This document shows, piece by piece, positions 4,301 through 39,056 of a stretch of DNA of 53,922 bases. The stretch is from the IMG/VR virus record IMGVR_UViG_3300040806_002192, positions 1 through 53,922 of that record. One strand, written 5' to 3'. Under the pieces are notes generated by a model. It was not told the origin of the DNA, searched no databases, and saw nothing but the letters and a program-made list of their open reading frames with translations. The translations under genes were made by a program, and so were the position numbers. The DNA is from a virus (lineage: Duplodnaviria; Caudoviricetes). How positions within the stretch are numbered: the stretch's first letter is position 1; every line of letters starts with the position of its first letter.

Positions 4301-7300
4301 AAGAAAACATTATTGGTTTAGGCGATGGAACCGCACAGGCTAAAGCTGATTGGGTACAAAGCAAGATTAACGAAGGTTATAATGACTTTTACTTTGCAGA
4401 TGATGCTATTAAAAATGTAGAAGCTGTAAAACAAGTTCTTGATAATGCCGATGTTAAAGGCAAGGTCCAACAAGCTAAAGTATACCAAGAAGTTATTGAA
4501 GAGATAACCGGCGATAATCAAGTTTCCGAACAAGAATACCAATCCCGGCTTGAAGAATATAATAAATTAACCACATCTATAGCTAATCAAATAGCAAAAT
4601 TAACCGGGAAAGACCCTAAGGATGTCAAAAAAGAGTTAAGTAGCCGGAGAGGACAACTAAGAAGTGATTCTAGCAAAACAATAAAATTTATTGAAAAAGT
4701 ATTACCAAAATTCATGAGTCGCGGAACAATGGAATACCTACGCAATACTTTTACAACGTCTAGTTCTAATAGGTTGCAATACCCTTCTTCAGGAGCTTAC
4801 CAAGAGGCTTTGGCAATTATGGAATTTATTAACCCCGAATTGCTTACAAAAGAAGATAAAAAAGCTTTAAGTAAAATTAAATTTAGACCATCACCTGTAA
4901 GTAAGGACATGAGAGCTAAAATGTCTCAGGAAGAATTAGCTGAAAGAATGCTAAAAGATTATAAAAAATTATACGATTCTATTTTTTCAGATCCTAAAGC
5001 TTATGCTAATAAAAGAAAAGCACAAGAAAAAATGCTTTACAATTTATTAAAAGGCTTTGAAAAAGCTTATTCTAACGATAATGCTTTTGAGTTGGCCGCT
5101 ATATTTTTAGGGCAAAGCGAAAGCATGCAACATTTCATACGGTCCTTAGCTATACCTAAAGTTTTTGCAGATCCAAGCACGCTAACGGCCAAAGATATTA
5201 TATTCAATAAAGATGGTGTTCCTAAACTAATAGAAGAAGAGCATTCTTTTAAAGCTGTTTTAGCTGCGAATACTATGTTTAACATGGTTTCAAACGGCAC
5301 GGTTGATGCAAATTTTGATAAATTAATGACTTTATACTTTCAAACAGGTTTATTAGTTAATGATAATAACAAACTAAACGCTAAATATAAAGACACTATG
5401 GCCCCAGGTACTATTTTTGGGGACCCATTAATAACATTAAAAACATATCAAGAAGTAGGTATTGATTTAACTAGATACACGTCTCTAATAAATGAAGTTG
5501 CAGAAAAATTAAACATAGATTCCAAAGGTGCACTAAAGCTAGTAGAGGTTGAGGAGTTAGCTAAAGACGAGATACCAGATAAATTACAGTCTGCTGTACA
5601 AATGCAAGAAGATCTTAATCCTAATCCCGAATTATCTAATAATGAAGCTGTAGAAGCTTTAAGTGATATGTTGGGTACTATTTATGGTATGGATGTGATC
5701 ACAACTAAAAAGGCTCTAGAAGAGGCTGGCTATAGCGAAGCAGATGTAAAAAAGGCTTTAAGAAGCTTTGGCTTTGAGGATTCTGAAAATGGTTATGTTT
5801 TTATAAATTCAGAAAAAGCAGGGCTAGATACAGCAATGCATGAGTTCACTCATGTTTGGGCTAACCTTGTTTTTGCAAAAGATCCCGAGCTATTTAATGC
5901 CATATATGATAAATTAAAATCTCACCCTAGGTATGCTGAGGCTATATCGAGAATGAGTAAAGGTGGATATGCAAATATTCCCGTTGACTCGTTTGGTTAT
6001 AAAAACGAAGTGATGGCTTACATACTCGGTGAAGAAGGTAAATCTCTTTATGAGGTATTTGCAGGAGATGCAGAGGCCAAAAGTTTAATTGATAAATTCT
6101 TTGACTATGTTAGAGAAGCTTTAGGATTTGATCCTACGGTAAAAAACTTTGCTGATTTAAATGTAGACCAAGTTGTTAAACTTGCTGTTAAAGATATGAT
6201 GGAGGGCAATCCTTCTGCTAACTTTAATAAGCTACAAAACGTTGCTGAAGGAAAAAGTTGGTATGCTAAGTCAGAAGCAGCACAAAGCCCTAGTGCTAAA
6301 GCTAAGGCTGACCCTTTAGTAAGGGCATTTAATAAACTAAAACTTTCATATAGAGCTAATAAAGATTTGGCACGCGCTATTAACGATGCTTATGCTGAGG
6401 TAGAAGGCTTAATGAGTTTTATGGATTTTGTTAAAATTGTATCTAAAAATACAAAAGAAATAAAAACCGGTAAAACAAATCAACTTCTTATAGCTAAAGC
6501 TGAAATAATTAAAGCTGATAAAATAGCTGAAGAAAGTGCTAAGAAACAAGCTGAAGATAAAGTAAATGAGGAGCAGGCTTCTAAGCTACAATCTATGTTT
6601 AGAAGAATTATTTATCAAGCAAAAGGTGAGGGAGCTAAGGCGTCAAGATGGTTTATTCCACCTAACGCTGAAGACTTCAAAGGTTTGCTATACGCATTCT
6701 TGCCTAAAGGTCAATTAGGTGTTGATGCACGCAAGTGGATGGAAGAGCATTTAATTAAGCCTTATTCTAATGGCATTGCTACTCTTGACACTGAAATACT
6801 TCATAAGTCTAAGGCTTGGACTGATATGTCTAAAGGCTTTAACTTTGAAGAAAAAGTTGGCGGTACACCATATACTTTAGGTGATGCTATTAAAGTTTAC
6901 AATGCGCTTAAAGAAGGTGTTGATCCAGGCATTGCTAAGAAAAAACATTTAGACGCACTTATACACGCTGTAGAAAGTAATTCTGAAGTATTAGATCTGG
7001 CCAATGAAGTTGCTGAATCATTCCCGATTAAACTTGAATCAGGTTGGCAAACAAGAGCGTTTGCTAAAGAAATTTATGATTCTATAAATAATGGTGCACG
7101 TAAAAGACATCTTGAAACATTTAGTAATAATGTTGATGCTGTATTTACAGATGCAACTCTTGATTTAATTGCAGACCAATATGGCGAAAAGTATAGACAA
7201 GCAATAGTATCTACACTGCGTAGAATGAAAAGCGGTAGAAATAGAGTATCTACTGATGCTAATGCAAACTCTTACATGAACTGGCTAAACAGAGCGGTAG

Positions 7301-8826
7301 GAACAACAATGTTCTTAAACACCCGTTCTGCTATATTGCAGTTGCTATCTACATTAAACTTTTTAGGGAAACCTGGTAATAATATATTCCAAGCTACTGC
7401 AGCATTTGCAAATCAAAAGCAATGGAAAGCAGATTATAATAAACTATGGAATAGTGATTATCTATCTAATAGACGTGATGGCGCGAAGTTTGATGTATTA
7501 GCAGATGAGATTGCAGAAGGACCGCAAGGTTTAAACAAGATACTTAAGTTTGGCTTTTTACCAACAAGGTATGCGGATAGCTTTGCTATTGCTCTTGGGG
7601 GTGCTGCATACTATAGGAATAGAGTTAATATGCTAATGAAGGAAGGAATGAGTGAGGCTGACGCTGAAGCTCAAGCTATGATTGATTGGAGAAATACTGC
7701 GGAAGAATCTCAGCAGTCTTCTGATCCATCTAAAATTTCTGAAATACAAGCATCGTCAATTGGTAAAATAATATATGCATTTGCTAATACACCGTTTCAG
7801 TACGCAAGGATAACAAAAAGAAAACTACAAGATATTACATCAGGTAGATCCGCAGCCGCTGGTACGGTGAGAACAGATATGCAATCTATATTGTACTATT
7901 CTGTTGGGCAAGCTATAATGTTTAACGCTCTACAAAGTGGCTTAGTGGCTTTATTAAATTCAGATGATCCTGAGGATGATGAAATGAAAAAAGAAAAGTA
8001 TGCATTATTAATAGAGCGTACTTTAACGTCTTTTGCTAAGTCCACAGGTAATCCTGGGGCTGTTGCTTCAACTTTATATGCAATGATGAAAGAAGGCTAT
8101 ATGCAGCAGACTGGTAAGAAAAGACCTGATGCAAATGCTTTTGCAATTACCGCTACATCTATATCTCCACCTTTAAATTCTAAGATGCGTGATTTAGCTG
8201 GTGCTTATAGAGCTTTTAATAAGATAGAAGAGGGTGATACATTTACACCGTCTTTAGACAATGAAGCTTTAACCATGGCGGGTGAAGTTGCATCATTTGG
8301 CGGTGTACCTTTAGATAGAGTAATTAGGAAAGCAAGACATTTGGCGGCAATTAAAAACGAAGAAGCCGAACTATGGCAAAAAATTTGGATGCTTGCTGGC
8401 TGGAGTAGCTGGGAGCTTGGTGTTAAAGAAAGTAAAGATACTGAGTTTAAAGCTATGGATTTTAAAGATGTAGATTTTAAAGAAGTTGAGTTTAAAGAAT
8501 CCGCATTTAAGAAATTAGAAAACGGCATAGCCGGAAGAGCAAACAATGATGGCACTATAGAGATAGACCCTAACCTATCTCCCGTCGAACGCGAAAAAAC
8601 TATTGCTCATGAAGAACAACACATGAAAGATATGGAAGCTGGAAAGCTTAATTATGATGATAATTATGTGTATTGGAATGACAGTAAGTATGAGCGCAAA
8701 AATGGTAAGATTATTTATAAAGGGAAATCTTATATAGAAGGCCATTCTAGTTTACCTTGGGAAAAGAAAGCATATGATGCTGAACCGAGTACCAAAGAAA
8801 TTAAGCGTAAAAAGTTATATGCTTAA
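1330..8826 (+). CDS. Giant polyvalent virion (probably DNA-ejection) protein: Gly/Ala hydrophobic N-terminal region, sigma70-r2-like segment, HAD-like domain, two HExxH metallopeptidase-like domains
   Basis: 2498-aa ORF at the end of the late strand. HAD motifs IFDFDDTL, LTARP and FADD lie at about 3980-4430. AMHEFTHVW at about 5833-5860 and IAHEEQH...PWE at about 8600-8765. The Gly/Ala-rich stretch at about 1830-2430 is typical of ejection proteins. Confidence 0.7.
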   Translation: MNELEQIVQRMIDAGEPEAAIAAVIQEYNQSVGSGKTDAAAEETATVVADQPSELGLQSGNGLSEQRYSHPDEDRGFFDALIFEPLSKGIAQGGSSDETYDVFLGGDFSPEALKTLREADRKVMESGMTKEGMAYEAAVNKRIEDGENPILAYFKELPNNKMGAAQYMIQSQTAAATAGLENPEISLTAAGAGALATGAIGSAASPVGTAIGAGIGGVRGFMSGSMLALEGASRMSELAKEWFEENNLDWNKDSDWQKLKNDESALREIQLRGMGAGLTIGAAEYFGGKLGGKLVSKAVGAVGGKVAKAATKTVGSLASEATVGGLGEAGALGVMGRDITSTESLKEIGMESVIGMVGAPITAAQATLEQVKAKNKYIVNGGKTTDKSKVNNIINNASDKDFVNIKIKSDDKKVNQKIKSRREKIIKEDKNLIKNKVEPQTITDQKKKLDSDIQQTEIDIANVKEQGDNLSALPFETRLKDLKDKRAALDKIVQYQLDELSEQESMDLMDMDDDISLYQSIVNDPLSTEAAKKEAQKQLDLLKVQQVQTFMNPNTIDSRNPDGPKSQKNIDLSRKTQEAYERGDIDGVIEAQQGLISSIATSLWSRVPKEKQVGTYEGFKAALVTSKSGMLDMLASYKSETGVPLAAYLGDRQKGLRVRANRIIKELTKQDFEVSTDSTEVLNSFSDSETNIDDIDIYGPKYNSQKLGLGTNLLEEASKDVELATQKIENELAKADEKAKPLTQKQRQSKAEKAFNSVFKNKYAKRVKDKIGKKLDKEKYIRDNVTTLKKIVLANRDFQKGNQGLAKDWNKYPPSDQAFVDYYMGTDTSNAQAISDRKKSLAEAVSDQIGKDARNNYFEGKEAERAEIGERLGIAYSEDLEVKKIRIFDFDDTLAQSNSQVLYTLPDGTTGKLNATEFAKQYEKLNNEGATFDFSEFSKVIDGKKGPLFEVAQKINAARGNEDLFVLTARPEDSAGAIQEFLKAAGLDFRKENIIGLGDGTAQAKADWVQSKINEGYNDFYFADDAIKNVEAVKQVLDNADVKGKVQQAKVYQEVIEEITGDNQVSEQEYQSRLEEYNKLTTSIANQIAKLTGKDPKDVKKELSSRRGQLRSDSSKTIKFIEKVLPKFMSRGTMEYLRNTFTTSSSNRLQYPSSGAYQEALAIMEFINPELLTKEDKKALSKIKFRPSPVSKDMRAKMSQEELAERMLKDYKKLYDSIFSDPKAYANKRKAQEKMLYNLLKGFEKAYSNDNAFELAAIFLGQSESMQHFIRSLAIPKVFADPSTLTAKDIIFNKDGVPKLIEEEHSFKAVLAANTMFNMVSNGTVDANFDKLMTLYFQTGLLVNDNNKLNAKYKDTMAPGTIFGDPLITLKTYQEVGIDLTRYTSLINEVAEKLNIDSKGALKLVEVEELAKDEIPDKLQSAVQMQEDLNPNPELSNNEAVEALSDMLGTIYGMDVITTKKALEEAGYSEADVKKALRSFGFEDSENGYVFINSEKAGLDTAMHEFTHVWANLVFAKDPELFNAIYDKLKSHPRYAEAISRMSKGGYANIPVDSFGYKNEVMAYILGEEGKSLYEVFAGDAEAKSLIDKFFDYVREALGFDPTVKNFADLNVDQVVKLAVKDMMEGNPSANFNKLQNVAEGKSWYAKSEAAQSPSAKAKADPLVRAFNKLKLSYRANKDLARAINDAYAEVEGLMSFMDFVKIVSKNTKEIKTGKTNQLLIAKAEIIKADKIAEESAKKQAEDKVNEEQASKLQSMFRRIIYQAKGEGAKASRWFIPPNAEDFKGLLYAFLPKGQLGVDARKWMEEHLIKPYSNGIATLDTEILHKSKAWTDMSKGFNFEEKVGGTPYTLGDAIKVYNALKEGVDPGIAKKKHLDALIHAVESNSEVLDLANEVAESFPIKLESGWQTRAFAKEIYDSINNGARKRHLETFSNNVDAVFTDATLDLIADQYGEKYRQAIVSTLRRMKSGRNRVSTDANANSYMNWLNRAVGTTMFLNTRSAILQLLSTLNFLGKPGNNIFQATAAFANQKQWKADYNKLWNSDYLSNRRDGAKFDVLADEIAEGPQGLNKILKFGFLPTRYADSFAIALGGAAYYRNRVNMLMKEGMSEADAEAQAMIDWRNTAEESQQSSDPSKISEIQASSIGKIIYAFANTPFQYARITKRKLQDITSGRSAAAGTVRTDMQSILYYSVGQAIMFNALQSGLVALLNSDDPEDDEMKKEKYALLIERTLTSFAKSTGNPGAVASTLYAMMKEGYMQQTGKKRPDANAFAITATSISPPLNSKMRDLAGAYRAFNKIEEGDTFTPSLDNEALTMAGEVASFGGVPLDRVIRKARHLAAIKNEEAELWQKIWMLAGWSSWELGVKESKDTEFKAMDFKDVDFKEVEFKESAFKKLENGIAGRANNDGTIEIDPNLSPVEREKTIAHEEQHMKDMEAGKLNYDDNYVYWNDSKYERKNGKIIYKGKSYIEGHSSLPWEKKAYDAEPSTKEIKRKKLYA
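8443..8511 (+). repeat. Degenerate 15-nt tandem repeat (pentapeptide xxxFK) inside the giant ORF
   Basis: gagtttaaagctatg / gattttaaagatgta / gattttaaagaagtt / gagtttaaagaatcc / gcatttaag = EFKAM DFKDV DFKEV EFKES AFK. Confidence 0.8.
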
Positions 8827-12734: not shown

Positions 12735-13004
12735 TTAAGCATTTTCATGTGGTGGGTTATCCTCTCTGAATAATGACTCCTCAATGTAAAATCCATATCG
12801 TCCTGCGATTTCGTCAATTGTTCTTGAGTTAATTCGCTTGCTATTTCTTGCATATTTTTTAATATCTTTTTCTAGTTTACGTCTTTTATAATGTAAAGAA
12901 GCTAATTTTTTCTGCTTTCTTTTATTAATTGAATCGTCCTGTCCACTTCTCTCTGATTTTGCGGTTTGTAAAGCGTCTTTCCAATATTGTTTTTTGTCAG
13001 CCAT
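12735..13004 (-). CDS. Basic hypothetical protein (start uncertain)
   Basis: The 3' part fills the gap after the endonuclease; the 5' ~100 nt overlap that gene, so the true start is likely downstream. Confidence 0.4.
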   Translation of the reverse strand: MADKKQYWKDALQTAKSERSGQDDSINKRKQKKLASLHYKRRKLEKDIKKYARNSKRINSRTIDEIAGRYGFYIEESLFREDNPPHENA

Positions 13005-19403: not shown

Positions 19404-20135
19404 CTATTCTTGTAGATAATTTTGAATTATTTCTTTAACTTCTTCATTTTGTAACTTTTTTAAAGCTTCCGCTTTTTTCTTTTTAACCCATATTTCAGAT
19501 TTGTTAGCCCATTCAGCTATTTTAGCAACACTGAGCTTTTTGTCATAAGGCTCATCAATACCATAATATTTACATATGATACCTTTTTCCATGGGTGTTA
19601 AATATTTATCCATAACTTTATTTAAAAAGTCATTTAATAAATCATTATCATAACTGGAAACTTCGTTTGCAATATCTAAATAATAATCATTAAAGAAAGA
19701 AGAAAACGTTCTTGTTAAGAATATATCGGTTTGATAATTCATATCGTATTTTCCTCCGTGTGTGGTTCCGTGAGGCTTTTCTGTGTAATATGCCTCTGGA
19801 ATTCTAATAGTGTCTCTATCGCGAGCTATGGCTCTTCTAATACCGTTTTTTATGTTCAATTTTAAATAATTTGTTATAACAGCGGGTTTTTCATCGTCAT
19901 CTGCTTTATCTATTATATCCCAGTTTAATTTTTTCCATGCTTTATAAAAAGAACAATAACCTTCTTGTAATAAATCTGTAAGATCAAGTACGCCTATTCG
20001 AGGGTATGATCTTTCAAAGATATTAGCTAAAGATTTTGGCCATTCTATATAAGGAGACCTTAATGGGTCAATTCTGTGATATGATTTTAGATTATTTAGA
20101 TGCGATTTATATGTAGCGTGGCTGTACCATTTCAT
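19404..20135 (-). CDS. Phage-encoded sigma70-family RNA polymerase sigma factor
   Basis: Region 2 LDLTDLLQEG...YLKLNIKNGIRRAIARDRDTIRIP; region 4 LTPMEKGIICKYYGID...LSVAKIAE...KAEALKKLQ. Confidence 0.88.
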   Translation of the reverse strand: MKWYSHATYKSHLNNLKSYHRIDPLRSPYIEWPKSLANIFERSYPRIGVLDLTDLLQEGYCSFYKAWKKLNWDIIDKADDDEKPAVITNYLKLNIKNGIRRAIARDRDTIRIPEAYYTEKPHGTTHGGKYDMNYQTDIFLTRTFSSFFNDYYLDIANEVSSYDNDLLNDFLNKVMDKYLTPMEKGIICKYYGIDEPYDKKLSVAKIAEWANKSEIWVKKKKAEALKKLQNEEVKEIIQNYLQE

Positions 20136-22590: not shown

Positions 22591-22833
22591 TTATTTAGTT
22601 AATTGTTTTGCATAATAAGTTTCATAAGGTATAGAATTTGTATCATCTACAAGTTCAGCAATACGTTTCCACACTCTAAGCTCATTTATATGATACATAC
22701 ATTGATGCATATTTAATTCTGGAAATGCACCTTTGCGTCGTTTTCTAAATAGATCACGCGCCATTAATCTGTGATTAGCCATTTTGGCTATCAGCTTTGA
22801 TTCAATTCTTAAGTCAATTTGTTTTTTAGTCAT
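22591..22833 (-). CDS. Basic hypothetical early protein
   Basis: 80-aa ORF with AT-rich leader. Confidence 0.6.
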   Translation of the reverse strand: MTKKQIDLRIESKLIAKMANHRLMARDLFRKRRKGAFPELNMHQCMYHINELRVWKRIAELVDDTNSIPYETYYAKQLTK

Positions 22834-22846
22834 AATTTTAATTTAG

Positions 22847-22922
22847 TGGACGTGGGAGGAGTCGAACCTCCGTTTGTTGATAGTGTACTTTCGAACTTTG
22901 TCAACACTTACCCGTCACGCCC
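22847..22922 (-). ncRNA. tRNA-Ala-like / tmRNA tRNA-like-domain (TLD)-only RNA
   Basis: GGGCGUG/CACGUCC acceptor stem with G3.U70 and discriminator A. Perfect T-arm GGAGG-UUCGACU-CCUCC. No D-stem or anticodon arm; a UGUUGA/UCAACA helix takes their place. Fills an intergenic gap exactly. Confidence 0.7.
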
Positions 22923-23113
22923 TATTTTCTTCGCCAAGCTCTGTGAACATTTGCACTTGTAGCTTGATCAACGATTTGTACTTCTAATACTTGTTTGTTT
23001 GCAATGATTGGCACATAACTATATAATTGTGTATCAGAGCATTGCACACATTTATTATAGCCAAGATCAATTCTTGCTTGTGGCATTACTTTGCCACATC
23101 TACAATATTTCAT
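22922..23113 (-). CDS. TraR/DksA-like C4 zinc-finger protein
   Basis: CRCGKVMPQARIDLGYNKCVQC matches the C..CG..IP..R......C..C pattern. Confidence 0.6.
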   Translation of the reverse strand: MKYCRCGKVMPQARIDLGYNKCVQCSDTQLYSYVPIIANKQVLEVQIVDQATSANVHRAWRRK

Positions 23114-23292
23114 AATTGTTGGTTTAGTATATAATTTAATACTTGTTTAGTTGTGCCTTGCATGCTTTGTACAACGCCATTTTGATCTTCATATTGAAGT
23201 TTATAAAATGATGGCTTGTGTATAGCAAATTCGGTATTGAATTTATTGCCCGCCATTTTCATCTGTTTTCGTTGGTTCATATTTATTATCAA
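23110..23292 (-). CDS. Hypothetical early protein
   Basis: Small ORF in the tightly packed early operon. Confidence 0.5.
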   Translation of the reverse strand: MIINMNQRKQMKMAGNKFNTEFAIHKPSFYKLQYEDQNGVVQSMQGTTKQVLNYILNQQL

Positions 23293-27985: not shown

Positions 27986-28819
27986 ATGGCAAACGTATAT
28001 TTAGGATCAGAATTACTAAACGGAGGTTCGGGGGGCGGCTCATTATCTGCCCAATCGGATGCTGTAGCTATTTCGGAATTAGCTATATGGTCAGGGACCT
28101 ACCAGGAATATGATGCTATCTCCACTCCGGACGATTACACAATATATTTTGTTACTGGAAAACAAACTGCTGTGGCTGCAACGGGTTTTACAATTTCACA
28201 AACTCATACACAAGCAACACCTAATACAGCAATAACATTTAGTGTAGATAGTATAACAGGGGATGCTGATGCGCAACCCGGTCAAGTAGATGCAGACGGA
28301 TATAAATGGTGGATAACCTCAACGGGCCCTACAGTCAGCGAGTTTACAACTCCATCCGGAGGAACTGGCATTGGCACCTCGCAGGCTACTGCAACAAAAA
28401 TATCAAATTCATCAATCACATTAAACTCAAGTACAGACGGTGGTATAACAGTAAATGTTGTTCCTTTTGAAGGCGACACTCAAATAGGGTCACCCCAAGC
28501 TTTTAATGTTGTTACTATTTCCTCAACGGTAGTTTTAAGGTTTAATGTTACATACACCAGTAGCGCTAGTTGGTTTTTTCAGTGTGGGGGACCAACTGTT
28601 CAAAGCACTGTAACAGCCGGTACGTCGACTACCGACGGCGGCAGTATAAGATTTGGAGGCGAAGTTGATCCTGACGATTTTGGTCCAGTGATGCAATTTC
28701 AAGGCAAAACTGGAGATGGAAGACTTGTTACTGAAATATGTAATAATTGGGATGACGGATTTGGAAAAAGAATGTATGCAAGAACTACAGATAGTACTGC
28801 AAACTATTATCTTTACTAA
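27986..28819 (+). CDS. Tail-fibre/receptor-binding-like protein
   Basis: Upper-tail-fibre-like motif and Thr/Ser/Gly-rich beta domains. Confidence 0.6.
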   Translation: MANVYLGSELLNGGSGGGSLSAQSDAVAISELAIWSGTYQEYDAISTPDDYTIYFVTGKQTAVAATGFTISQTHTQATPNTAITFSVDSITGDADAQPGQVDADGYKWWITSTGPTVSEFTTPSGGTGIGTSQATATKISNSSITLNSSTDGGITVNVVPFEGDTQIGSPQAFNVVTISSTVVLRFNVTYTSSASWFFQCGGPTVQSTVTAGTSTTDGGSIRFGGEVDPDDFGPVMQFQGKTGDGRLVTEICNNWDDGFGKRMYARTTDSTANYYLY

Positions 28820-31934: not shown

Positions 31935-33533
31935 ATGGCAATACAATTCGGTTCGCCTAAAATAGTTAAAGAACTAAGCTTTAAAGATGAAGCTAAGAAA
32001 AAACTTATTAAAGGCATTGATAAATTAGCGGAAGCTGTAGGCAGCACACTAGGAGCTTCCGGGAGGACAGTAGTACTTGAAGATGATTTTGGTAACCCGC
32101 ATGTTACAAAAGATGGGGTTACTGTTGCAAATTATGTTAATTTAGAAGATCCTGTTGAAAACTTAGGCGTTACTATGTTAAAGCAAGCGTCTCGCCAAAC
32201 AGCATCTAAAGCAGGAGATGGTACTACAACCTCAACAGTGCTTGCGCAAGCTATTATTCATAATTACTTTAAACAAAACGGTGAAGAATATTCATTTCGT
32301 GATGTTAAAAGCGGTATTATGGCTTTTGCGAAACATACGTTAAAACAATTGGAAAAAAGAAGTGTTTCCGTTGATGATAAAAGATTAAACCAAGTCTCAA
32401 GAATATCAGCCAATAATGACACTGAGCTTGGTGACTTTATAGCAGAAGCATTTAAATCAGCGGGAGATAACGGAGTAGTTACCATGGAGACATCTCCAAC
32501 AAACGAAACGTATATAGATGTAGTAGATGGAACACATATTAATGCTACATCAAAAAGTATACACTTCTATACTAATAGAGAAAAAGAAATAGGCGAGCTA
32601 GAGAAGCCGCTTATATTTCTATGTGCTTCTGAAGTTACAAATATTAGAAGAATACAAACAATATTAGAGCACGCGATTAAGTCCAATAGATCGTTACTGC
32701 TCATTGCCCCTTGCGAACAGCAGGTAGTGTCAGCTTTAGCAATGAATCACGTAAAGGGCAATATTAAGTGTAATATCATAGATCCTCCGTCGTTTGGGCT
32801 GAAACGTAAGGATATATTAGATGATATTGCCCTTCTAACGGGTGCTACTGTTATTGATGAAAGTCTAGGCGACTCTCTAGATAATATCACCCCAGAAGTG
32901 TTAGGACAGGCCGATAAGGCTATCATAGATAATGATGGTACTACTCTTGCTATTAAAGAGGTATCAAAAGAAGTTACAGAACGCGTTGATTATTTAAAAG
33001 CGCAGCTAGATGAAGAAGATCACCATGTGATGCGACCACATATTGAAAACCGCTTGGCTATATTATCCGGAGGTGTTTCTATAGTATATGTTGGTGGCGA
33101 TACAGATGTTGAGGTTTCAGAGAAAAAAGATCGCGTCGACGATGCTATACACGCTGTGCGTGCTGCAAAAAAAGAAGGTATACTACCAGGAGGTGGTTCA
33201 GCTTTGGCTTTTGTTGCTGGTGCGGATTGGGAAATGAAACTAAAGCCGGGTGAGCTTGTAGGTGTTAATATATTGAAAAGTTCTTTATATGCACCTTTTT
33301 TACTTATATTAAGTAACGCAGGATTAGATATATCAAACTATCCTAAACTAGATGGATGGGGTAAAGGTATTGATGTTACAGATGGTAAAATTAAAGACAT
33401 GCGTAAAGCTGGAATTATAGATCCATTATTAGTAACTAAGTCTGCTCTTCAAAACGCTATATCTGTAGCTACTACGATTCTTTCAACTGATTGTGTAATT
33501 TCAAATGTACGAGAAGGTGAAAGCAATAGGTAG
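31935..33533 (+). CDS. groEL: Phage chaperonin GroEL
   Basis: TLGASGR, VTKDGVTVA, AGDGTTT, EKKDRVDDA, GILPGGG, GIIDP; no GGM tail. Confidence 0.95.
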   Translation: MAIQFGSPKIVKELSFKDEAKKKLIKGIDKLAEAVGSTLGASGRTVVLEDDFGNPHVTKDGVTVANYVNLEDPVENLGVTMLKQASRQTASKAGDGTTTSTVLAQAIIHNYFKQNGEEYSFRDVKSGIMAFAKHTLKQLEKRSVSVDDKRLNQVSRISANNDTELGDFIAEAFKSAGDNGVVTMETSPTNETYIDVVDGTHINATSKSIHFYTNREKEIGELEKPLIFLCASEVTNIRRIQTILEHAIKSNRSLLLIAPCEQQVVSALAMNHVKGNIKCNIIDPPSFGLKRKDILDDIALLTGATVIDESLGDSLDNITPEVLGQADKAIIDNDGTTLAIKEVSKEVTERVDYLKAQLDEEDHHVMRPHIENRLAILSGGVSIVYVGGDTDVEVSEKKDRVDDAIHAVRAAKKEGILPGGGSALAFVAGADWEMKLKPGELVGVNILKSSLYAPFLLILSNAGLDISNYPKLDGWGKGIDVTDGKIKDMRKAGIIDPLLVTKSALQNAISVATTILSTDCVISNVREGESNR

Positions 33534-34223: not shown

Positions 34224-37200
34224 ATGGCTAGAATATCAACGTACGGTCAGGACAGCACTTTAAACAAGCTAGATAAGGTATTAGGTACTGACAGTGCTAC
34301 TGGTGGAACAAAAAATTATACCATTGATTCTATAATGGGGTTAATTAATGATCAGGGCTTGGTACAAGCTTTTGATGGTTCTACTTTTAAATTTCAAAGT
34401 TATGTAGCTGGTGCCTCCGACCCTCAGGGTGTGATAAATTTAAACGCGGGAGCAGCTACTACCGCAGCTTTTTCTGCTATTAATCAAATATATATATCTA
34501 CAAAAGATTCGACCGGTCTTTCCTTAAACGAATATTTAGAAAATGCAGATAACGATTTTATAAAAATATCAAAAAAGGGTAATCTTAATCAATTTGGTAT
34601 TTTTGAAGTCACCGATATTGCTGACCATGACGGAGGTGCTTATAAGCTATTAACATTAACACCTAGAGGTACAAATGGCAATTTAGTTGTAAATGATGAC
34701 TATTTTGTATCTAATTATTCTGCTCTGTATGATATGGATTTCTCCGATGACTCCGTAACAGAGTTTGGAGATGTAACAGATGCAGGCTCAGGTGAAATTA
34801 TAACAGATGCAGAAAGAACAAGCCTAAATAACTTTACAGCTAATGGGCTTGTGCACGCTGACGTTGTAGATAACGTAACCTCAACGACTACAGACGTACC
34901 TTTATCGGCTAATCAAGGCAAAGTATTAAAAGAACTTATTGACGCTATAAATACTTTACTAACTAGTGACAATGTTGACTTAGATAGCCTTCAAGAAGTT
35001 GTAGATTTTATAGAAGCTAATAAAGATACCTTAGATAATTTAGGTATTGGCAATATAGCAGGGCTACAATCGGCTTTAAACGATAAACAAAATACAGAAG
35101 TTGGTAAAGGTTTATCGACTGAGGATTTTACTACAGCTTTACTGGCTAAATTAAATGGTATAGCTGCATCTGCTGAGGTAAATGTACAGTCTAATTGGAA
35201 TGAAGCTAATACAGGAAGCGATGCGTTTATACAAAATAAGCCTACCGATCTAACAAATTTAAGTATACATAATGTAACTGAGCTTAGTGACGTAACTTCA
35301 GCGGGCTCGGGTGATATTATAACTTCATCTGAAAGAACAAAGCTAACCGGAATTGAAACTAATGCGGATGTAACAGACACCGCAAATGTAACGGCAGCTG
35401 GAGCATTGATGGATTCAGAAGTTACTAATCTGGACGATGTTAAGTCTTTCGACCCCACGGATTATGCTACGGCAGCGCAAGGAGCGGCAGCAGATGGTGC
35501 TTTGCCGACGACGGGGGGAGCTATGACGGGAGCTATAACAACTAATAGCACATTCGACGGTAGGGATGTAGCGATAGATGGCTCTAAGCTGGATACAATT
35601 GAAAATAATGCAGATATAACAGATTTTGATAATGTTAGAGCTTCTGGCGCATTAATGGATTCAGAAGTTGCCAATTTAGCTCAGGTAAAAGCTTTTGATA
35701 CTGCTGATTACGCTACAGCTGCGCAAGGAGTAAAAGCTGATAGTGCTCAGCAGCCGCCCGCGGAAGGTCCTTTTGTAGATGGTGATAAAACTAAATTAGA
35801 CAATACAACAAGCACCACTACTACTATAGAAGTTGCTGGGACAACTAATGAAATAGAAGTTAGTCCAACAGGCCCGCAAAATTTATCAACCAATAGAACC
35901 TTTACAGTTGGTCTTCCTGATGATGTTACCATAAGCGGTGATTTAACAGTAAACGAAACAATAGAATTAGTCAACGCGCAGGCTTCAACACCTACGTTTG
36001 ATAATGGCTTATATTATAGTACAGAAGATTCCCATGACACCTTACATTTTAGGTATCATGGGCACGACATTAGTATTGATCATTTAACTGAAAATATACC
36101 AACAGGTATATTAAACGGTGGTGAACTTTCTACAAATACATCTACAACTTTTGATGTAGCTGCGGGTGACGGCGTTATTAATATTCTTAATAAAGATAAT
36201 AGCGATCCTCACCCCGAAATTAAAAAAGTTCAATGGACCGCTACAACTATAACTCATACCTTAGGCGATGCGGGTGAAACAGATCAATTAAATACATGGA
36301 TTTATGTAGATAGTACAGGCGCAATACAGCAAACACTTACAATACCAACACCATCTCTTTGGAGAAATAATATAGTATTAGGATCTGTTATACACTCTGA
36401 AAATGTAATTAGATTTGTAAAAACATTTCCTAGAACTGCTTATTCTAATGGCAATACTGTATCAGAATTTATAGAAATATTTGGTCCTCTTAAAAAATCA
36501 GGCCATTTGCTTACTGTAAATTCTAGCAATAATATGGCTCTTGATAGATCCACAGGGGTTGCTTTTGCATTGGGTAGAAATTATGCAACAGATGCAGAAG
36601 AGCCAAATCTTGTTAGCGACGGAGCTAGCACCCCTGTATTTCATAGGTACTCAAGCACCTCTGGAGGTTTTACAAAAGATGACGGAGTAGCTGGGGCTGG
36701 ATATACAAGTATTGATCCTACTAAATATGATAATAACGGTACTTTAACAAGCGTATCTGGAGGTAACTATTCAGTACAAAGATTATACTATTTTCCAAAT
36801 AACACAAGCGTAATTGTTGCTTATTACGGAAAAAATGAGTATGCCTCAATGGATGCCGCTGAACAAAATTATCTTTTAGAAAACTTTCAAGAAGCGGAAA
36901 ACACAAATAGCCAAGCTATATACTTAGGCGCTATCATATTAAAAGGTAATGTTACTAATTTAAATACAGCTGCAGATGCTAAAATATTAACAGGTGGCAT
37001 ATTTAGAAGTTTATCGGCTACTAATTTAGGTGGAGTCGCTGCGGGCGCTATATTGAATGATTTAGCTGACGTAGAAATAGTTAGTCCTTCTAATAATGAA
37101 TCTATTATTTATAATTCTTCTACAGGGCTTTTTGAAAATAAAAACCTTGAGTTTGATTATGATTTAGTAGTAGATTCTAAAATAGTTACAAAGCATAACA

Positions 37201-39056
37201 ATAACGCAAAAGTTATGGTTACTACTGTAGCTACTAAAACTGCTGCTCATCCAGCACATAATGTTGGAAGTTCATCTGGTTTTGTTATAGATGGCGTAGA
37301 GTCTCCTGAATTAACATTTGCTGTTGGGAACACTTACTATTTTGATCAATCTGACTCAAGTAATTCAAATCATCCGTTAAGATTTTATTACGACGAAAAT
37401 AAAACAACTCAATATACAGCCGGTGTAACTACAGCTGGCATTCCTGGCCAAGCCGGTGCATATACGCAAATAGTGCCGAGCCAATCAACACCTAATGTTT
37501 TATACTATCAATGTTCTTCTCATTTAAACATGGGCTGGAAAACTGTATTTAATACAAGAAATTTAACAGGTTTTTCAACAAATGATTTAACTGAAGATAC
37601 TAATTTATATTATACAGATGCAAGGTTTGATACAAGGCTTAGCTTAAAAGACACTGGTGATTTATCAGAAGGCTCTAATCTTTATTACACGGAAGCAAGA
37701 GTACTGAGCAAAATTAACTTAACGAGCGTTGATGCTCTCAGCGATGTAGACACCACAACAAGCGCGCCGTCTTCCGGACAGGCTCTTGTTTGGGATGGAA
37801 GTAATTTTGTACCAGACACTGTAGGCAGCACTTTAACAGTACAAGAAGAAGGCAGTTCGTTAACCGGTGCAGCAACTACATTAAATTTTGTAGGCCCAAG
37901 TGTTACGGCCTCAGGCTCAGGCGGCACAAAAACGATAACTATAGGGGGTAGCATTGGCGATTTATCTGATGTAGACATCACAAGTAACGCTCCTTCTACA
38001 GGACAAATATTAAAATGGAATGGAACTAATTTCGTTCCAGGTACCGATAATTCCGGATCTGCTGCATCCGATTCTTTTGCCACTATTTCTGTTTCAGGAG
38101 AAACAAACGTCGTGGCTGATTCAAGTTCAGATACGCTTACTTTTGTTGCTGGAGACGGAATAACAATAACCACTGATTCTGCAACAGATTCAATAACTTT
38201 TGAAGCTGACGGTGGATCCGGGTCTGCAACTTTTACAGTGGACAATTTTACAGGAAATGGAAGCACAGCCACTTACCAGTTGACTGCCTCTCCAACTTCT
38301 GAGAATTTTACGGATATTTATTTTGATGGTGTGTATCAACAAAAAGATACATATACTTTAAATGCTTCTACTGATCAAATAACTTTTGATGCAAACGTGG
38401 CTAATGGTGTGAGTATAGAGGTAAGGTCCTTGGCAAACTTATCAGCTGCTGATGCCGCTAAAACAAATCTAGTTTCTGATTCGTTTACCGCAACAGCTGA
38501 CCAAACAACATTCACTTTAGTTAACGGAACACCAAGCACAAAAGAACTTACAATGGTTTTTGTTCAAGGTGTATATCAGTCTAAAGCAAATTATAGCTTA
38601 ACGTCTGGAAACATAGTGTTTTCCACTGGAGTGGAAGCAGGGGATGTCGTTGAAGTAATTTCAATAAGCGGGGCTAATATAACAACAAGTCCTGTAACAA
38701 GTGTTGATGGAAACACAGGAGCTGTAACCTCTGCTGTAACAAGCGTAAACGGCCAAACAGGTGCAGTTACAGTTGCTTCTACAATGGGAGTTAATGTAAT
38801 AAGCTCAGATACAACTGCTACAGCAAATAATCTTTATGTGTTTACGGCAAATCTTACGTTAACACTTCCGACTAGTCCAAGTGCGGGCGACTCTATAAAA
38901 ATTTCAAATAGATCTGGAGTCACAACTTGCGTGCTCGCTAGAAACGGTAGTAATATAATGGGCAGCGGGTCTGATCTTACGTTAGATACGGCATCTGCAA
39001 GTTTTGAATTAATATACTCTGACGCAACAAACGGTTGGGTAATAATAGGGCAATAA
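34224..39056 (+). CDS. Long mosaic tail fibre protein
   Basis: 1610 aa, Thr/Ser/Asp-rich, with paired internal repeats, a cupredoxin-like module, VTSVNGQTG repeats and a C-terminal TLTLP.SPS.GD...GW domain. Confidence 0.85.
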   Translation: MARISTYGQDSTLNKLDKVLGTDSATGGTKNYTIDSIMGLINDQGLVQAFDGSTFKFQSYVAGASDPQGVINLNAGAATTAAFSAINQIYISTKDSTGLSLNEYLENADNDFIKISKKGNLNQFGIFEVTDIADHDGGAYKLLTLTPRGTNGNLVVNDDYFVSNYSALYDMDFSDDSVTEFGDVTDAGSGEIITDAERTSLNNFTANGLVHADVVDNVTSTTTDVPLSANQGKVLKELIDAINTLLTSDNVDLDSLQEVVDFIEANKDTLDNLGIGNIAGLQSALNDKQNTEVGKGLSTEDFTTALLAKLNGIAASAEVNVQSNWNEANTGSDAFIQNKPTDLTNLSIHNVTELSDVTSAGSGDIITSSERTKLTGIETNADVTDTANVTAAGALMDSEVTNLDDVKSFDPTDYATAAQGAAADGALPTTGGAMTGAITTNSTFDGRDVAIDGSKLDTIENNADITDFDNVRASGALMDSEVANLAQVKAFDTADYATAAQGVKADSAQQPPAEGPFVDGDKTKLDNTTSTTTTIEVAGTTNEIEVSPTGPQNLSTNRTFTVGLPDDVTISGDLTVNETIELVNAQASTPTFDNGLYYSTEDSHDTLHFRYHGHDISIDHLTENIPTGILNGGELSTNTSTTFDVAAGDGVINILNKDNSDPHPEIKKVQWTATTITHTLGDAGETDQLNTWIYVDSTGAIQQTLTIPTPSLWRNNIVLGSVIHSENVIRFVKTFPRTAYSNGNTVSEFIEIFGPLKKSGHLLTVNSSNNMALDRSTGVAFALGRNYATDAEEPNLVSDGASTPVFHRYSSTSGGFTKDDGVAGAGYTSIDPTKYDNNGTLTSVSGGNYSVQRLYYFPNNTSVIVAYYGKNEYASMDAAEQNYLLENFQEAENTNSQAIYLGAIILKGNVTNLNTAADAKILTGGIFRSLSATNLGGVAAGAILNDLADVEIVSPSNNESIIYNSSTGLFENKNLEFDYDLVVDSKIVTKHNNNAKVMVTTVATKTAAHPAHNVGSSSGFVIDGVESPELTFAVGNTYYFDQSDSSNSNHPLRFYYDENKTTQYTAGVTTAGIPGQAGAYTQIVPSQSTPNVLYYQCSSHLNMGWKTVFNTRNLTGFSTNDLTEDTNLYYTDARFDTRLSLKDTGDLSEGSNLYYTEARVLSKINLTSVDALSDVDTTTSAPSSGQALVWDGSNFVPDTVGSTLTVQEEGSSLTGAATTLNFVGPSVTASGSGGTKTITIGGSIGDLSDVDITSNAPSTGQILKWNGTNFVPGTDNSGSAASDSFATISVSGETNVVADSSSDTLTFVAGDGITITTDSATDSITFEADGGSGSATFTVDNFTGNGSTATYQLTASPTSENFTDIYFDGVYQQKDTYTLNASTDQITFDANVANGVSIEVRSLANLSAADAAKTNLVSDSFTATADQTTFTLVNGTPSTKELTMVFVQGVYQSKANYSLTSGNIVFSTGVEAGDVVEVISISGANITTSPVTSVDGNTGAVTSAVTSVNGQTGAVTVASTMGVNVISSDTTATANNLYVFTANLTLTLPTSPSAGDSIKISNRSGVTTCVLARNGSNIMGSGSDLTLDTASASFELIYSDATNGWVIIGQ
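35349..35750 (+). repeat. Internal ~52-aa duplication in the tail fibre
   Basis: GIETNADVTDTANVTAAGALMDSEVTNLDDVKSFDPTDYATAAQG versus TIENNADITDFDNVRASGALMDSEVANLAQVKAFDTADYATAAQG. Confidence 0.85.

What the first reader, a model, noticed from the sequence alone, without database searches (positions are those of the whole stretch)
22844..22922. 76-nt alanine-accepting tRNA-like RNA with no D-stem or anticodon: a TLD-only tmRNA mimic?
Seen (minus strand): GGGCGUG ACGGGUAAG UGUUGA caaaguucgaaaguacacua UCAACA AAC GGAGG UUCGACU CCUCC CACGUCC A CUA. It has a 7-bp acceptor stem with G3.U70, A73 and a canonical T-arm. The D region is unpaired, a single helix replaces the anticodon arm and a 3-nt linker joins the T-arm. 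Established: G3.U70 plus A73 is the AlaRS identity, and a stemless D-loop with a short linker is the architecture of the tmRNA TLD that binds SmpB. There is no room for a tag ORF, and CCA is not encoded. Inference: an early-expressed decoy that titrates SmpB or alters ribosome rescue, or a decoy for anticodon-nuclease defences. Standard tRNA finders would probably miss it.
Basis: partly seen in the sequence, partly recalled or inferred. Interest (0 to 1): 0.8.

Follow-up and report, generated by a model that had tools for sequence, protein, structure and literature searches.

The report
Phage tmRNA reduced to tRNA-like domain
A marine phage carries a 76-base gene that is only the alanine-accepting, tRNA-like end of the bacterial ribosome-rescue RNA (tmRNA); this kind of gene was reported once before in a phage, probably interferes with the host's rescue system, and proves to be common in uncultured phages.

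Summary
ARAGORN and Rfam at gathering thresholds miss it. The tmRNA model aligns both of its ends (31.4 bits, below the cut-off of 47).

It is a real, conserved gene. Near-identical copies lie in other viral contigs with unrelated flanks. The same kind of element follows the same upstream gene in 24 of 33 relatives. All three helices show compensatory changes.

The kind is already known. Mycobacteriophage DS6A carries a "TLD only" tmRNA, and a similar molecule was reported to inhibit tmRNA in E. coli, perhaps by titrating SmpB. My model, built from the marine elements, finds the DS6A element.

Three things are new:
- Most members keep G3.U70, but a few have lost it.
- The central hairpin holds exchangeable modules. 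The window's 20-nt loop also occurs as a free-standing hairpin in related phages.

Function is inferred, not shown.

The parts
22916..22922 (-). Acceptor stem, 5' strand GGGCGTG (nt 1-7). G1 (22922) is also the third base of the TAG stop of the upstream ORF.
   Evidence: Pairs 5:68 and 6:67 covary across 59 elements. The 4:69 pair changes from C-G to A-T in relatives while G3.T70 is kept.
22907..22915 (-). Unpaired D-like loop ACGGGTAAG (nt 8-16), with tmRNA-type A8 and a GG.
   Evidence: The tmRNA model aligns the homologous stretch in relatives. A at nt 8 occurs in 45 of 59 elements, and GG within nt 8-21 in 50 of 59.
22875..22906 (-). Central hairpin in the P2 position. It has a 6-bp stem TGTTGA/TCAACA (22906-22901 with 22880-22875). 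The stem closes a 20-nt loop (22900-22881) that holds an inner GTTC-GAAA-GTAC mini-hairpin.
   Evidence: Stem: 96.7% of cells paired and 5 of 6 pairs with compensatory change in 15 distinct copies. Loop: the 19-mer occurs once in the window and in 19 other viral loci in three contexts.
22872..22874 (-). AAC linker between the central hairpin and the T-arm.
   Evidence: 'AC' directly precedes the T-stem in 47 of 59 elements although the search pattern did not force it. The tmRNA consensus has GGAC at that place.
22855..22871 (-). T-arm: GGAGG, TTCGACT, CCTCC.
   Evidence: The two stem pairs left free by the search pattern are paired in 57 of 59 and 59 of 59 elements, with 4-5 pair types.
22847..22854 (-). 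Acceptor stem, 3' strand CACGTCC (with T70 opposite G3), plus discriminator A (22847).
22844..22846 (-). 3' trailer CTA. CCA is not encoded, so maturation would need 3' trimming and the CCA-adding enzyme.
   Evidence: The trailer is CTA or CAA in relatives and CTA in DS6A.
22922..23113 (-). Upstream ORF P0001 (63 aa, with CxxC...CxxC motifs). It is the syntenic anchor of the locus and has no family match.
22591..22833 (-). Downstream ORF P0002 (80 aa, no family match). Its ATG lies 13 nt after the discriminator, on the same strand.

Best explanation
It is a phage gene for a tmRNA reduced to its tRNA-like domain (TLD), the same kind as the 'TLD only' tmRNA of mycobacteriophage DS6A.

Shown:
- It has a tmRNA-type acceptor stem with G3.U70 and A73, a stemless D-like loop, a T-arm, and one hairpin where the body of tmRNA would be.
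- It has no tag reading frame.
- It is conserved, and all three helices covary.

Inferred:
1. It is transcribed with the surrounding minus-strand genes.
2. It is cut out by RNase P at G1, trimmed at the 3' end, and given CCA.
3. Host alanyl-tRNA synthetase charges it through G3.U70 and A73.
4. Host SmpB binds it.
5. Because it has no resume codon or tag frame, it cannot complete trans-translation. It therefore competes with host tmRNA for SmpB, and possibly for stalled ribosomes. This would lower tagging and decay of products from truncated phage messages.

I put about 0.9 on the identity as a TLD-only tmRNA gene and about 0.5 on interference with trans-translation. The 20-nt loop module probably adds a second, unknown function.
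For: Identity:
- RF00023 aligns end to end at 22844-22922 (31.4 bits, E 1.4e-12). It does the same for 78-126-nt elements in 5 of 5 related records (28.8-41.2 bits; alignments).
- The tRNA model scores lower, 22.4 bits.
- In the scan of bacterial genomes, 21 loci held the 3' motif, and ARAGORN of them full tmRNAs with tag peptides. In 5 of those 6, the same GGGCGTG forms the tmRNA's own 5' end.
- Signatures not forced by my pattern: A at nt 8 in 45 of 59 elements, GG in the D-like loop in 50 of 59, and AC before the T-stem in 47 of 59.

Selection:
- Exact or near-exact copies sit in unrelated flanks.
- Among relatives chosen only by the upstream protein, 24 of 33 have such an element just downstream on the same strand. 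Of those 24, 20 keep G3.U70 and A73. The neighbouring 4:69 pair switches from C-G to A-U.
- Covariation is shown.
- 21 of 59 elements lie within 300 nt of a tRNA gene. Two directly abut tRNA-Met. This fits shared tRNA processing.

Precedent:
- DS6A is listed as 'TLD only'. [quoted passage not shown]
- Model R1, built from the marine elements, finds the DS6A element (31.3 bits, E 8.6e-4). That element has the same parts and a similar length of 80 nt.
Against: - No expression, processing, charging or SmpB-binding data exist for this element. The RNA-library contigs laid cannot show transcription.
- All Rfam scores are below the curated cut-offs.
- The single-sequence fold is not better than shuffles.
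- Four of the 24 syntenic elements (2 sequence types) have A3-U70 and a C or U discriminator, so alanine charging is not universally kept.
- The loop is conserved more strongly than a mere spacer would be. It also survives without the T-arm or without any tRNA-like frame. Part of the selection is therefore on something other than the TLD.
- The window encodes no SmpB, and the host is unknown. The host is only inferred to be a flavobacterium from 46% terminase identity.
- The primary paper on DS6A (Mao et al. 2009) is not held. I know it only through two citing papers.
Confidence: 0.55

Rival explanations
1. The tRNA-like frame is mainly a scaffold and processing handle. The working part would be the conserved hairpin module in the P2 position. 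The TLD would supply precise RNase P and 3' processing, CCA addition and nuclease resistance, as engineered tRNA scaffolds do. The module's target, whether a protein or an RNA, is unknown.
For: - The window's 19-nt loop core is identical in 13 of 15 distinct hairpins while the closing stem changes by compensatory substitutions.
- The same hairpin occurs in three contexts: inside a full TLD; inside a GGCGTG...CACGCC stem with no T-arm (L008, L012 types); and as a bare hairpin right after the same upstream gene (L009, L011, L013, L019, L020).
- The relatives with the bare hairpin carry TLDs with other inserts.
- A related module (AAATAGGAG.CGAAAG.CACACTAA) is likewise found both free and inside TLDs.
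- 26 of 82 TLD inserts match sequence outside any masked TLD.
- Inserts range up to about 100 nt (L156, L180).
Against: - The 13 of 15 count is biased, because most copies were found by searching for that exact 19-mer.
- The TLD part is conserved across lineages whose inserts are unrelated, including the AlaRS identity pair. A mere scaffold would not need that pair.
- At least 2 of the 26 'outside' matches (c5, c24) lie in degenerate TLDs that my mask missed.
- This reading and the best explanation are not exclusive.
Confidence: 0.2
2. It is a helper, not an inhibitor. The charged TLD with SmpB would enter stalled ribosomes and free them without tagging the protein, as proposed for the tag-less tmRNAs of jakobid mitochondria. 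Phage proteins made from truncated messages would then survive.
For: - G3.U70 and A73 are kept in 20 of 24 syntenic elements, which suggests that charging matters.
- Tag-less tmRNAs are conserved in mitochondria and in some plastids, together with SmpB (passage in PMC11915505).
- G1 is the last base of the upstream TAG stop. RNase P cutting would therefore leave that message without a stop codon.
Against: - No release step is known for a ribosome that holds peptidyl-Ala-TLD and has no stop codon to read.
- The cited E. coli result was inhibition of tmRNA, not rescue.
- The mt-tmRNA model RF02544 does not match the window.
Confidence: 0.1
3. It is a decoy for a host defence that attacks tRNAs or their acceptor ends.
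For: Phages are known to carry tRNAs that replace ones cut by defence nucleases (recalled, not from a call). The element often sits among phage tRNA genes.
Against: There is no anticodon arm, which is the usual target. The architecture is specifically tmRNA-like (A8, AC linker, stemless D-loop), not that of any one tRNA. Nothing in the window links it to a defence system.
Confidence: 0.04
4. It is a non-functional relic: a decayed tRNA-Ala or tmRNA gene, or an attP-type fragment of a host ssrA end.
For: - Phages that integrate into ssrA carry its 3' part (passage in PMC10865867).
- One relative (L173) has a visibly decayed copy.
- 9 of 33 syntenic loci have no element at E <= 0.01.
Against: - Both acceptor strands are present, and they covary. 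An attP core holds only the 3' part.
- No integrase is found in the window.
- In the scan of bacterial genomes, the window's own GGAGG-type T-arm occurred only in L207, a 76-nt mini identical to the L002 type. It occurred in no full-length tmRNA.
- Copies are conserved in unrelated flanks.
Confidence: 0.03

Closest known systems
TLD-only tmRNA of Mycobacterium phage DS6A (tmRNA Website entry; Mao et al. 2009, known to me only through PMC4131195 and PMC11915505)
   Same: - It is a phage gene of about 80 nt.
- It has the same parts: a 7-bp acceptor stem with G3.U70, A73, a stemless D-like loop with GG, one hairpin, a 3-nt linker ending in AC, a T-arm, and no tag frame.
- CCA is not encoded, and the trailer is CTA in both.
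- The model built from the marine elements finds it.
   Different: - The sequences are unrelated outside the TLD consensus (31.3 bits only).
- The host phylum differs: Actinomycetota against a probable flavobacterial host.
- The window's hairpin carries a conserved module that also exists free-standing. I saw nothing like that for DS6A.
- DS6A is a single published case, whereas here there is a large family.
Tag-less organellar tmRNAs (jakobid mitochondria, Rfam RF02544; about 65-bp plastid forms in Mallomonadaceae)
   Same: They are tmRNAs reduced to the tRNA-like part, with no tag reading frame, yet conserved (passage in PMC11915505; listing of PMC3590771).
   Different: - RF02544 gives no match in the window.
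- The organellar genes are usually permuted and live with a dedicated imported SmpB.
- The phage RNA must act on the host's system, in the presence of a complete host tmRNA.
Full-length bacterial and phage tmRNA (RF00023)
   Same: Both ends align to the model. The acceptor stem is identical to that of real tmRNAs of several phyla. Phages are known to carry complete tmRNAs: 402 of 18,146 genomes according to PMC9004378 (passages).
   Different: There are no pseudoknots, resume codon or tag frame. The element has 76 nt against about 300-400, and it scores below the gathering cut-off.
tRNA-Ala
   Same: It shares G3.U70, A73, a 7-bp acceptor stem, a T-arm and a length of about 76 nt.
   Different: - It has no D-stem and no anticodon arm.
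- It has A rather than U at position 8.
- ARAGORN does not call it.
- RF00005 scores 22.4 bits against a cut-off of 29.
- By contrast, 27 of the 86 pattern matches that are true tRNAs are called normally.
tRNA-like processing handles and tRNA scaffolds (for example mascRNA at the 3' end of MALAT1, or engineered tRNA scaffolds; recalled, not from a call)
   Same: A tRNA-shaped fold is used to define the ends of, or to stabilise, an unrelated RNA part. Inserts sit where the anticodon arm would be.
   Different: No evidence here shows that processing or stabilisation is the purpose. The frame is tmRNA-type and keeps the AlaRS identity.

Membership tests
tmRNA (Rfam RF00023, full length) | tRNA-like domain: 7-bp acceptor stem with G3.U70, A73, T-arm, D-loop without a stem | tested here: met
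   The model aligns both ends.
tmRNA (Rfam RF00023, full length) | mRNA-like domain with resume codon, tag reading frame and stop codon | tested here: not met
   Only a 32-nt hairpin lies between the two TLD halves. ARAGORN finds no tmRNA. No frame through the loop meets a stop codon before the 3' end (my reading).
tmRNA (Rfam RF00023, full length) | Pseudoknots PK1-PK4 | tested here: not met
   There is no room in 76 nt. The model deletes about 280-326 positions.
tmRNA (Rfam RF00023, full length) | Score at or above the curated gathering cut-off (47 bits) | tested here: not met
   31.4 bits. No match at gathering thresholds.
TLD-only phage tmRNA (DS6A type) | [quoted passage not shown] | tested here: met
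   The parts match DS6A one for one. Model R1 finds DS6A at 31.3 bits, E 8.6e-4.
TLD-only phage tmRNA (DS6A type) | Inhibits host tmRNA, and binds or titrates SmpB | not testable with these tools
   Only the literature statement is available. No RNA-protein tool is offered.
TLD-only phage tmRNA (DS6A type) | Processed to a discrete small RNA with added CCA, and alanylated | not testable with these tools
   The runs found are contigs only, which cannot show ends, strand or CCA.
Mitochondrial tmRNA (Rfam RF02544) | Match to the family model | tested here: not met
   No match at E <= 10. All 18 candidates of the first look were scored and none passed.
tRNA (Rfam RF00005) | Cloverleaf with D-arm and anticodon arm, and a score at or above 29 bits | tested here: not met
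   22.4 bits. ARAGORN finds 0 genes. The consensus fold has no D-stem or anticodon stem.
attP core derived from host ssrA | Only the 3' part of the host gene, next to an integrase | tested here: not met
   The 5' acceptor strand is present and covaries. PF00589 is absent from the window, with the control ringing in 14 of 14 genomes. The record is estimated 83% complete, so an integrase outside it is not excluded.

The most novel reading that the evidence does not exclude
The TLD-only tmRNA of these marine phages may be one of several interchangeable frames, the others being a bare stem and a larger conserved RNA. These frames would present a shared set of small structured RNA modules.

The locus after the zinc-ribbon gene would then be a hypervariable 'RNA island'. 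In it, modules such as the window's loop (outer stem, an AAA/ACTA internal loop, and an inner GAAA-capped mini-hairpin) are shuffled between frames.

On this reading the tRNA-like frame does more than bind SmpB. It could deliver a cargo RNA to the ribosome, or stabilise it. The cargo might act against host factors still to be found.
Probability: 0.2. Interest if true: 0.8.

Novelty: new member of a known kind. Interest (0 to 1): 0.55.

Why it matters
Why phages carry tmRNA genes is unresolved. The tag-less form has rested on one phage, DS6A.

It is invisible to ARAGORN and to Rfam at default thresholds, and it is unannotated even in cultured phages: Microbacterium phage Gack and DS6A itself.

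That opens three lines of work:
- It gives a covariance model to find these genes.
- Natural variants that keep or lose the alanine identity pair offer a built-in test of whether charging matters.
- A tractable non-pathogenic phage-host pair (Gack on Microbacterium foliorum) is available in which to ask whether phages switch off ribosome rescue.

The exchangeable hairpin modules are an unexplained layer that may point to new phage small-RNA functions.

Tried and rejected
1. The loop as a T7/SP6-type promoter (it contains ACACTAT). The 19-mer occurs only once in the window even with up to 3 mismatches. No single-subunit RNA polymerase was found, although the control rang nowhere, so this is weak. 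The flanking bases covary as a stem rather than keeping a start-site consensus. Rejected.

2. The loop as a sigma-70 promoter, or the element as a terminator. No promoter-like site lies at the element. The only terminator-like hit is the T-arm read on the wrong strand. Rejected.

3. A hidden tag frame or a hammerhead core in the loop. No frame has a stop codon, and the CTGA/GAAA resemblance is not conserved. Rejected.

4. Permuted tmRNA. The match is weak (19.3 bits) and runs into the downstream ORF. Rejected.

5. Expression.
- The DNA of the region is held by 14 seawater or estuary metagenome runs at 0.84-0.93 of the sampled words.
- Four RNA-labelled runs were laid. One metatranscriptome, X20, has a contig over 22778-22922 with 2 differences, and contigs of relatives that share only the element.
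- Contigs cannot show transcription, ends or CCA, and DNA may be present in such libraries. No conclusion was drawn.

6. blastn of the 1.2-kb region and tblastn of P0001 against cultured phages found no match. The nearest relatives by terminase (Elemovirus MT497068 and MW202828) have no such element.

7. Pfam and PHROGs on eight neighbouring small ORFs found only one sub-threshold Pfam match (DUF6017, 17.1 bits against a cut-off of 27, for the ORF at 23110-23292).

8. The conserved upstream RNAs in relatives have no Rfam match.

10. Mao et al. 2009 is not held. Supplementary tables of PMC9004378 and PMC11915505, which list phage tmRNAs, could not be seen and may hold further tag-less phage forms.

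11. Literature searches for a described family of TLD-only tmRNAs in phages found only the DS6A statements.

Full report
**The observation**

On the minus strand, 22922-22847 reads GGGCGTG, ACGGGTAAG, TGTTGA, a 20-nt loop, TCAACA, AAC, GGAGG-TTCGACT-CCTCC, CACGTCC, A. It is followed by CTA.

The MFE fold and the RNAalifold consensus of ten homologues both give three helices:
- a 7-bp acceptor stem with G3.U70;
- a 6-bp central stem;
- a 5-bp T-stem with a 7-nt loop.

Nucleotides 8-16 stay unpaired. The single-sequence energy is unremarkable: z = -1.21, and 26 of 200 shuffles fold as well.

Standard tools do not call the element. ARAGORN finds no gene in the whole window. Rfam at gathering scores finds nothing.

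Looser searches do align it:
- The tmRNA model RF00023 aligns end to end at exactly 22844-22922, with its interior deleted (31.4 bits, E 1.4e-12, cut-off 47).
- The tRNA model gives 22.4 bits against a cut-off of 29.
- The mitochondrial tmRNA model gives nothing.

**The setting**

The window is a virus record of 53,922 bases, estimated 83% complete.

The minus strand carries ribonucleotide reductase, thymidylate synthase, primase-helicase, an ERF recombinase, a sigma-like protein, a ligase and many small ORFs. The plus strand carries GroEL, terminase, portal and virion proteins.

The terminase is 46% identical to that of Flavobacterium phages (Elemovirus), and further matches are to Cellulophaga phages. 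A flavobacterial host is therefore likely but not shown.

The element sits between two small minus-strand ORFs:
- G1 is the last base of the TAG stop of the 63-aa protein P0001.
- The next ATG follows 13 nt after the discriminator.

No SmpB gene and no tyrosine integrase is present in the window.

**Homologues**

The 25-base T-arm and acceptor end occurs exactly in five other viral contigs. The 19-base loop core occurs in 19.

In L002, L004, L005, L007, L017 and L021 the element is kept while the flanks are unrelated.

I then chose relatives only by the upstream protein P0001, which gave 33 loci, and searched them with R1. R1 is a covariance model built from 59 elements. It finds an element on the same strand just downstream in 24 of the 33 loci at E <= 0.01.

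These elements are 75-185 nt long. Twenty of the 24 (18 of 21 distinct sequences) keep G3.U70 and A73. One lineage changes the neighbouring 4:69 pair from C-G to A-U and leaves G3.U70 untouched.

Four loci (two sequence types: L158/L159 and L161/L179) have A3-U70 and a C or U discriminator. R1 was built from G3.U70 sequences, so these counts lean towards G3.U70.

**Breadth**

I scanned the viral contigs for a pattern that forces GGGC at the 5' end, the T-loop, and GTCCA at the 3' end.
- 86 distinct matches have at least 6 of 7 acceptor pairs.
- ARAGORN of them as ordinary tRNAs, mostly tRNA-Ala, and does not.
- Of those 59, 45 meet strict criteria: 7 of 7 acceptor pairs, 5 of 5 T-stem pairs, one outer hairpin, 1-16 unpaired nucleotides before it, and at most 6 after it.
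- Lengths run from 70 to 98 nt, with a median of 79.

**Covariation and tmRNA signatures**

On the alignment of the 59 elements, 98.7% of the acceptor and T-stem cells pair. None of 500 shuffles reaches this, and sliding the partners drops pairing to 38-56%.

The two T-stem pairs that the pattern left free pair in 57 of 59 and 59 of 59 elements, with four to five pair types. The acceptor pairs 5:68 and 6:67 also covary, but I had filtered on acceptor pairing.

Three features were not forced by the pattern and are tmRNA-like rather than tRNA-like: A at nt 8 (45 of 59), GG in the D-like loop (50 of 59), and AC directly before the T-stem (47 of 59) (tmRNA consensus).

Twenty-one of the 59 lie within 300 nt of a tRNA gene.

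**Descent from tmRNA**

A scan of one genome per bacterial species for the lineage's 3' end found 21 loci.
- ARAGORN calls six as full tmRNAs with tag peptides. In five of these, GGGCGTG lies 305-399 nt upstream as the tmRNA's own 5' end.
- Ten others are minis of 69-147 nt, mostly on small contigs of metagenome bins. One (L207) is identical to the L002-type element.

So the phage acceptor stem is a natural tmRNA acceptor stem. The minis also turn up in bins that are labelled as bacteria.

**What is already known**

The searchable literature holds one precedent, which I know only through two citing papers.
- Hudson, Lau and Williams 2014 list 'Mycobacterium phage DS6A (TLD only)'. [quoted passage not shown]
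- The 2025 tmRNA database paper repeats this. It also reports tag-less plastid forms of about 65 bp and tag-less mitochondrial tmRNAs (passages).
- The 2009 paper itself is not held.

I fetched DS6A and searched it with R1. The single hit at 28479-28557 scores 31.3 bits, E 8.6e-4. It lies in an unannotated gap between gp33 and gp34.

Read one base earlier, the hit gives GGGGCCG/CGGCTCC with G3.U70, a stemless loop with GG, one hairpin, a CAC linker, a T-arm, A73 and a CTA trailer, 80 nt in all. The parts are the same as in the window.

R1 also finds an unannotated element in Microbacterium phage Gack, between tRNA-Asn and tRNA-Gln (57.9 bits).

Complete tmRNAs in phages are well known: 402 of 18,146 genomes according to PMC9004378 (passages). 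Seven searches found no description of a family of tag-less phage tmRNAs.

**The central hairpin**

The stem of the hairpin is real. In 15 distinct copies, 96.7% of cells pair and five of six pairs show compensatory changes.

The loop is the unexpected part. The same hairpin occurs in three contexts:
- inside a full TLD (window, L002-L007, L015, L017, L021, L040);
- inside a GGCGTG...CACGCC stem with no T-arm (L008, L012 types);
- as a bare hairpin directly after the P0001 homologue (L009, L011, L013, L019, L020).

The phages of the third group carry TLD-only elements with different inserts nearby.

A related module, AAATAGGAG.CGAAAG.CACACTAA, shares the plan of the window's loop: an outer stem, an internal loop with AAA on one side and ACTA on the other, and an inner mini-hairpin capped by GAAA. 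It too is found both free and inside TLDs.

I masked the TLDs and compared 82 inserts with the rest of the loci. Twenty-six inserts match elsewhere (at least 18 nt, E <= 1e-3). At least two of these matches fall in decayed TLDs that the mask missed.

The window itself holds only this one module.

I could not assign a function to the loop. The promoter, terminator, tag-frame and ribozyme ideas all failed (my reading).

**Mechanism**

The anatomy, the conservation and the kinship to tmRNA are shown. The following steps are inferred:
1. The element is transcribed with its operon.
2. RNase P cleaves at G1.
3. The 3' end is trimmed and CCA is added.
4. AlaRS charges the RNA through G3.U70 and A73.
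5. SmpB binds it.
6. It competes with host tmRNA.

Because there is no resume codon, a ribosome that accepts the RNA cannot finish trans-translation. The cited E. coli result points to inhibition.

The variants without G3.U70 fit the remark that chargeability was not needed for inhibition. The strong retention of G3.U70 elsewhere suggests that charging usually matters.

A helper role (tag-free rescue) and a scaffold role for the loop module remain open, and they do not exclude the main reading.

**Expression**

Expression could not be tested. The runs found are contigs only.

**Verdict**

The kind is already described from one phage, so this is a new member of a known kind.

Noticed in passing
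L153-L181 (about 1690-2100 in each locus); L009, L011, L013, L019: The stretch after the P0001 homologue is a hypervariable non-coding 'RNA island'. Recurring modules are nested in one another. One frame is ACGAGTAGCTTAATTAGG ... CATAAGTGAATTGC, with variable hairpins inserted. Another unit ends in ACGGAAGTGTATTACA. None has an Rfam match.
   Followed up: partly
L009, L011, L013, L019, between the bare hairpin and the TLD (sequences): A conserved non-coding stretch of about 150-300 nt runs from GAGAGGTTTAAGGTTGGAAG to CAGTCCCGTCC.CCTCTC and ends 4 nt before the TLD. It looks like a structured RNA closed by a GAGAGG/CCTCTC stem. It has no Rfam match.
   Followed up: partly
window 22922-22924; L149, L156, L100; DS6A (L184): G1 of the element is the third base of a TAG. 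'TA' precedes G1 in 12 of 78 distinct upstream contexts, against 3.5% for TA before GGG in the same loci. In 5 of the 12, an open frame of at least 40 codons ends there. RNase P cutting would leave that message without a stop codon. The background is crude, because intergenic DNA is AT-rich.
   Followed up: partly
L158/L159 (1792-1870, 1858-1936); L161/L179 (1829-1934, 1881-1986): These are TLD-shaped elements at the syntenic place with A3-U70 and a C or U discriminator. They are natural variants that should not be alanine acceptors.
   Followed up: partly
L008, L010, L014, L012, L016: These copies have no T-arm. The window's hairpin sits inside a perfect GGCGTG/CACGCC stem, with a 9-nt unpaired stretch before it and TA after it. 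No TLD is found elsewhere in L008, L012 or L014, the three of these five loci searched.
   Followed up: partly
PP978884.1 39854-39942 (L148 639-727); JN698994.1 28478-28557: TLD-only tmRNA genes are unannotated in the GenBank records of two cultured phages, Microbacterium phage Gack and Mycobacterium phage DS6A.
   Followed up: yes
L188-L190, L195, L198, L199, L202, L205-L207: TLD-only minis of 69-147 nt occur in contigs of metagenome bins labelled as Aliivibrio, Bacteroidetes, Actinomycetes, Rickettsiales and others. Most are on small contigs and may be phage DNA binned with bacteria. One (L202) lies in a 2.6-Mb contig.
   Followed up: no
L147 1458-1527 (Rhodobacter phage RcXuper, OP186293.1 about 12847-12916): An unannotated tRNA-like element sits inside a large tRNA cluster. 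It has a T-arm and a 7-bp acceptor stem but U3-A70, and it has two hairpins instead of a cloverleaf.
   Followed up: no
L146 1452-1525 (Arthrobacter phage Reedo and relatives): A T-arm plus CCCGGCCA end, 93% identical to the window's 3' part, lies between small ORFs and DNA polymerase I. The 5' acceptor strand pairs only in part (5 of 7), and R1 scores 25 bits.
   Followed up: no
window 31935-33533; 19404-20135; 1330-8826; 34224-39056: The phage encodes a GroEL-type chaperonin, a sigma-factor-like protein, and two very large ORFs of 2498 and 1610 aa.
   Followed up: no
L156 1692-1876; L180 1246-1420; L167 1772-1909: These TLD elements of 138-185 nt have an extra 60-100 nt inserted into the inner mini-hairpin of the module. 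The P2 position therefore tolerates large nested insertions.
   Followed up: no
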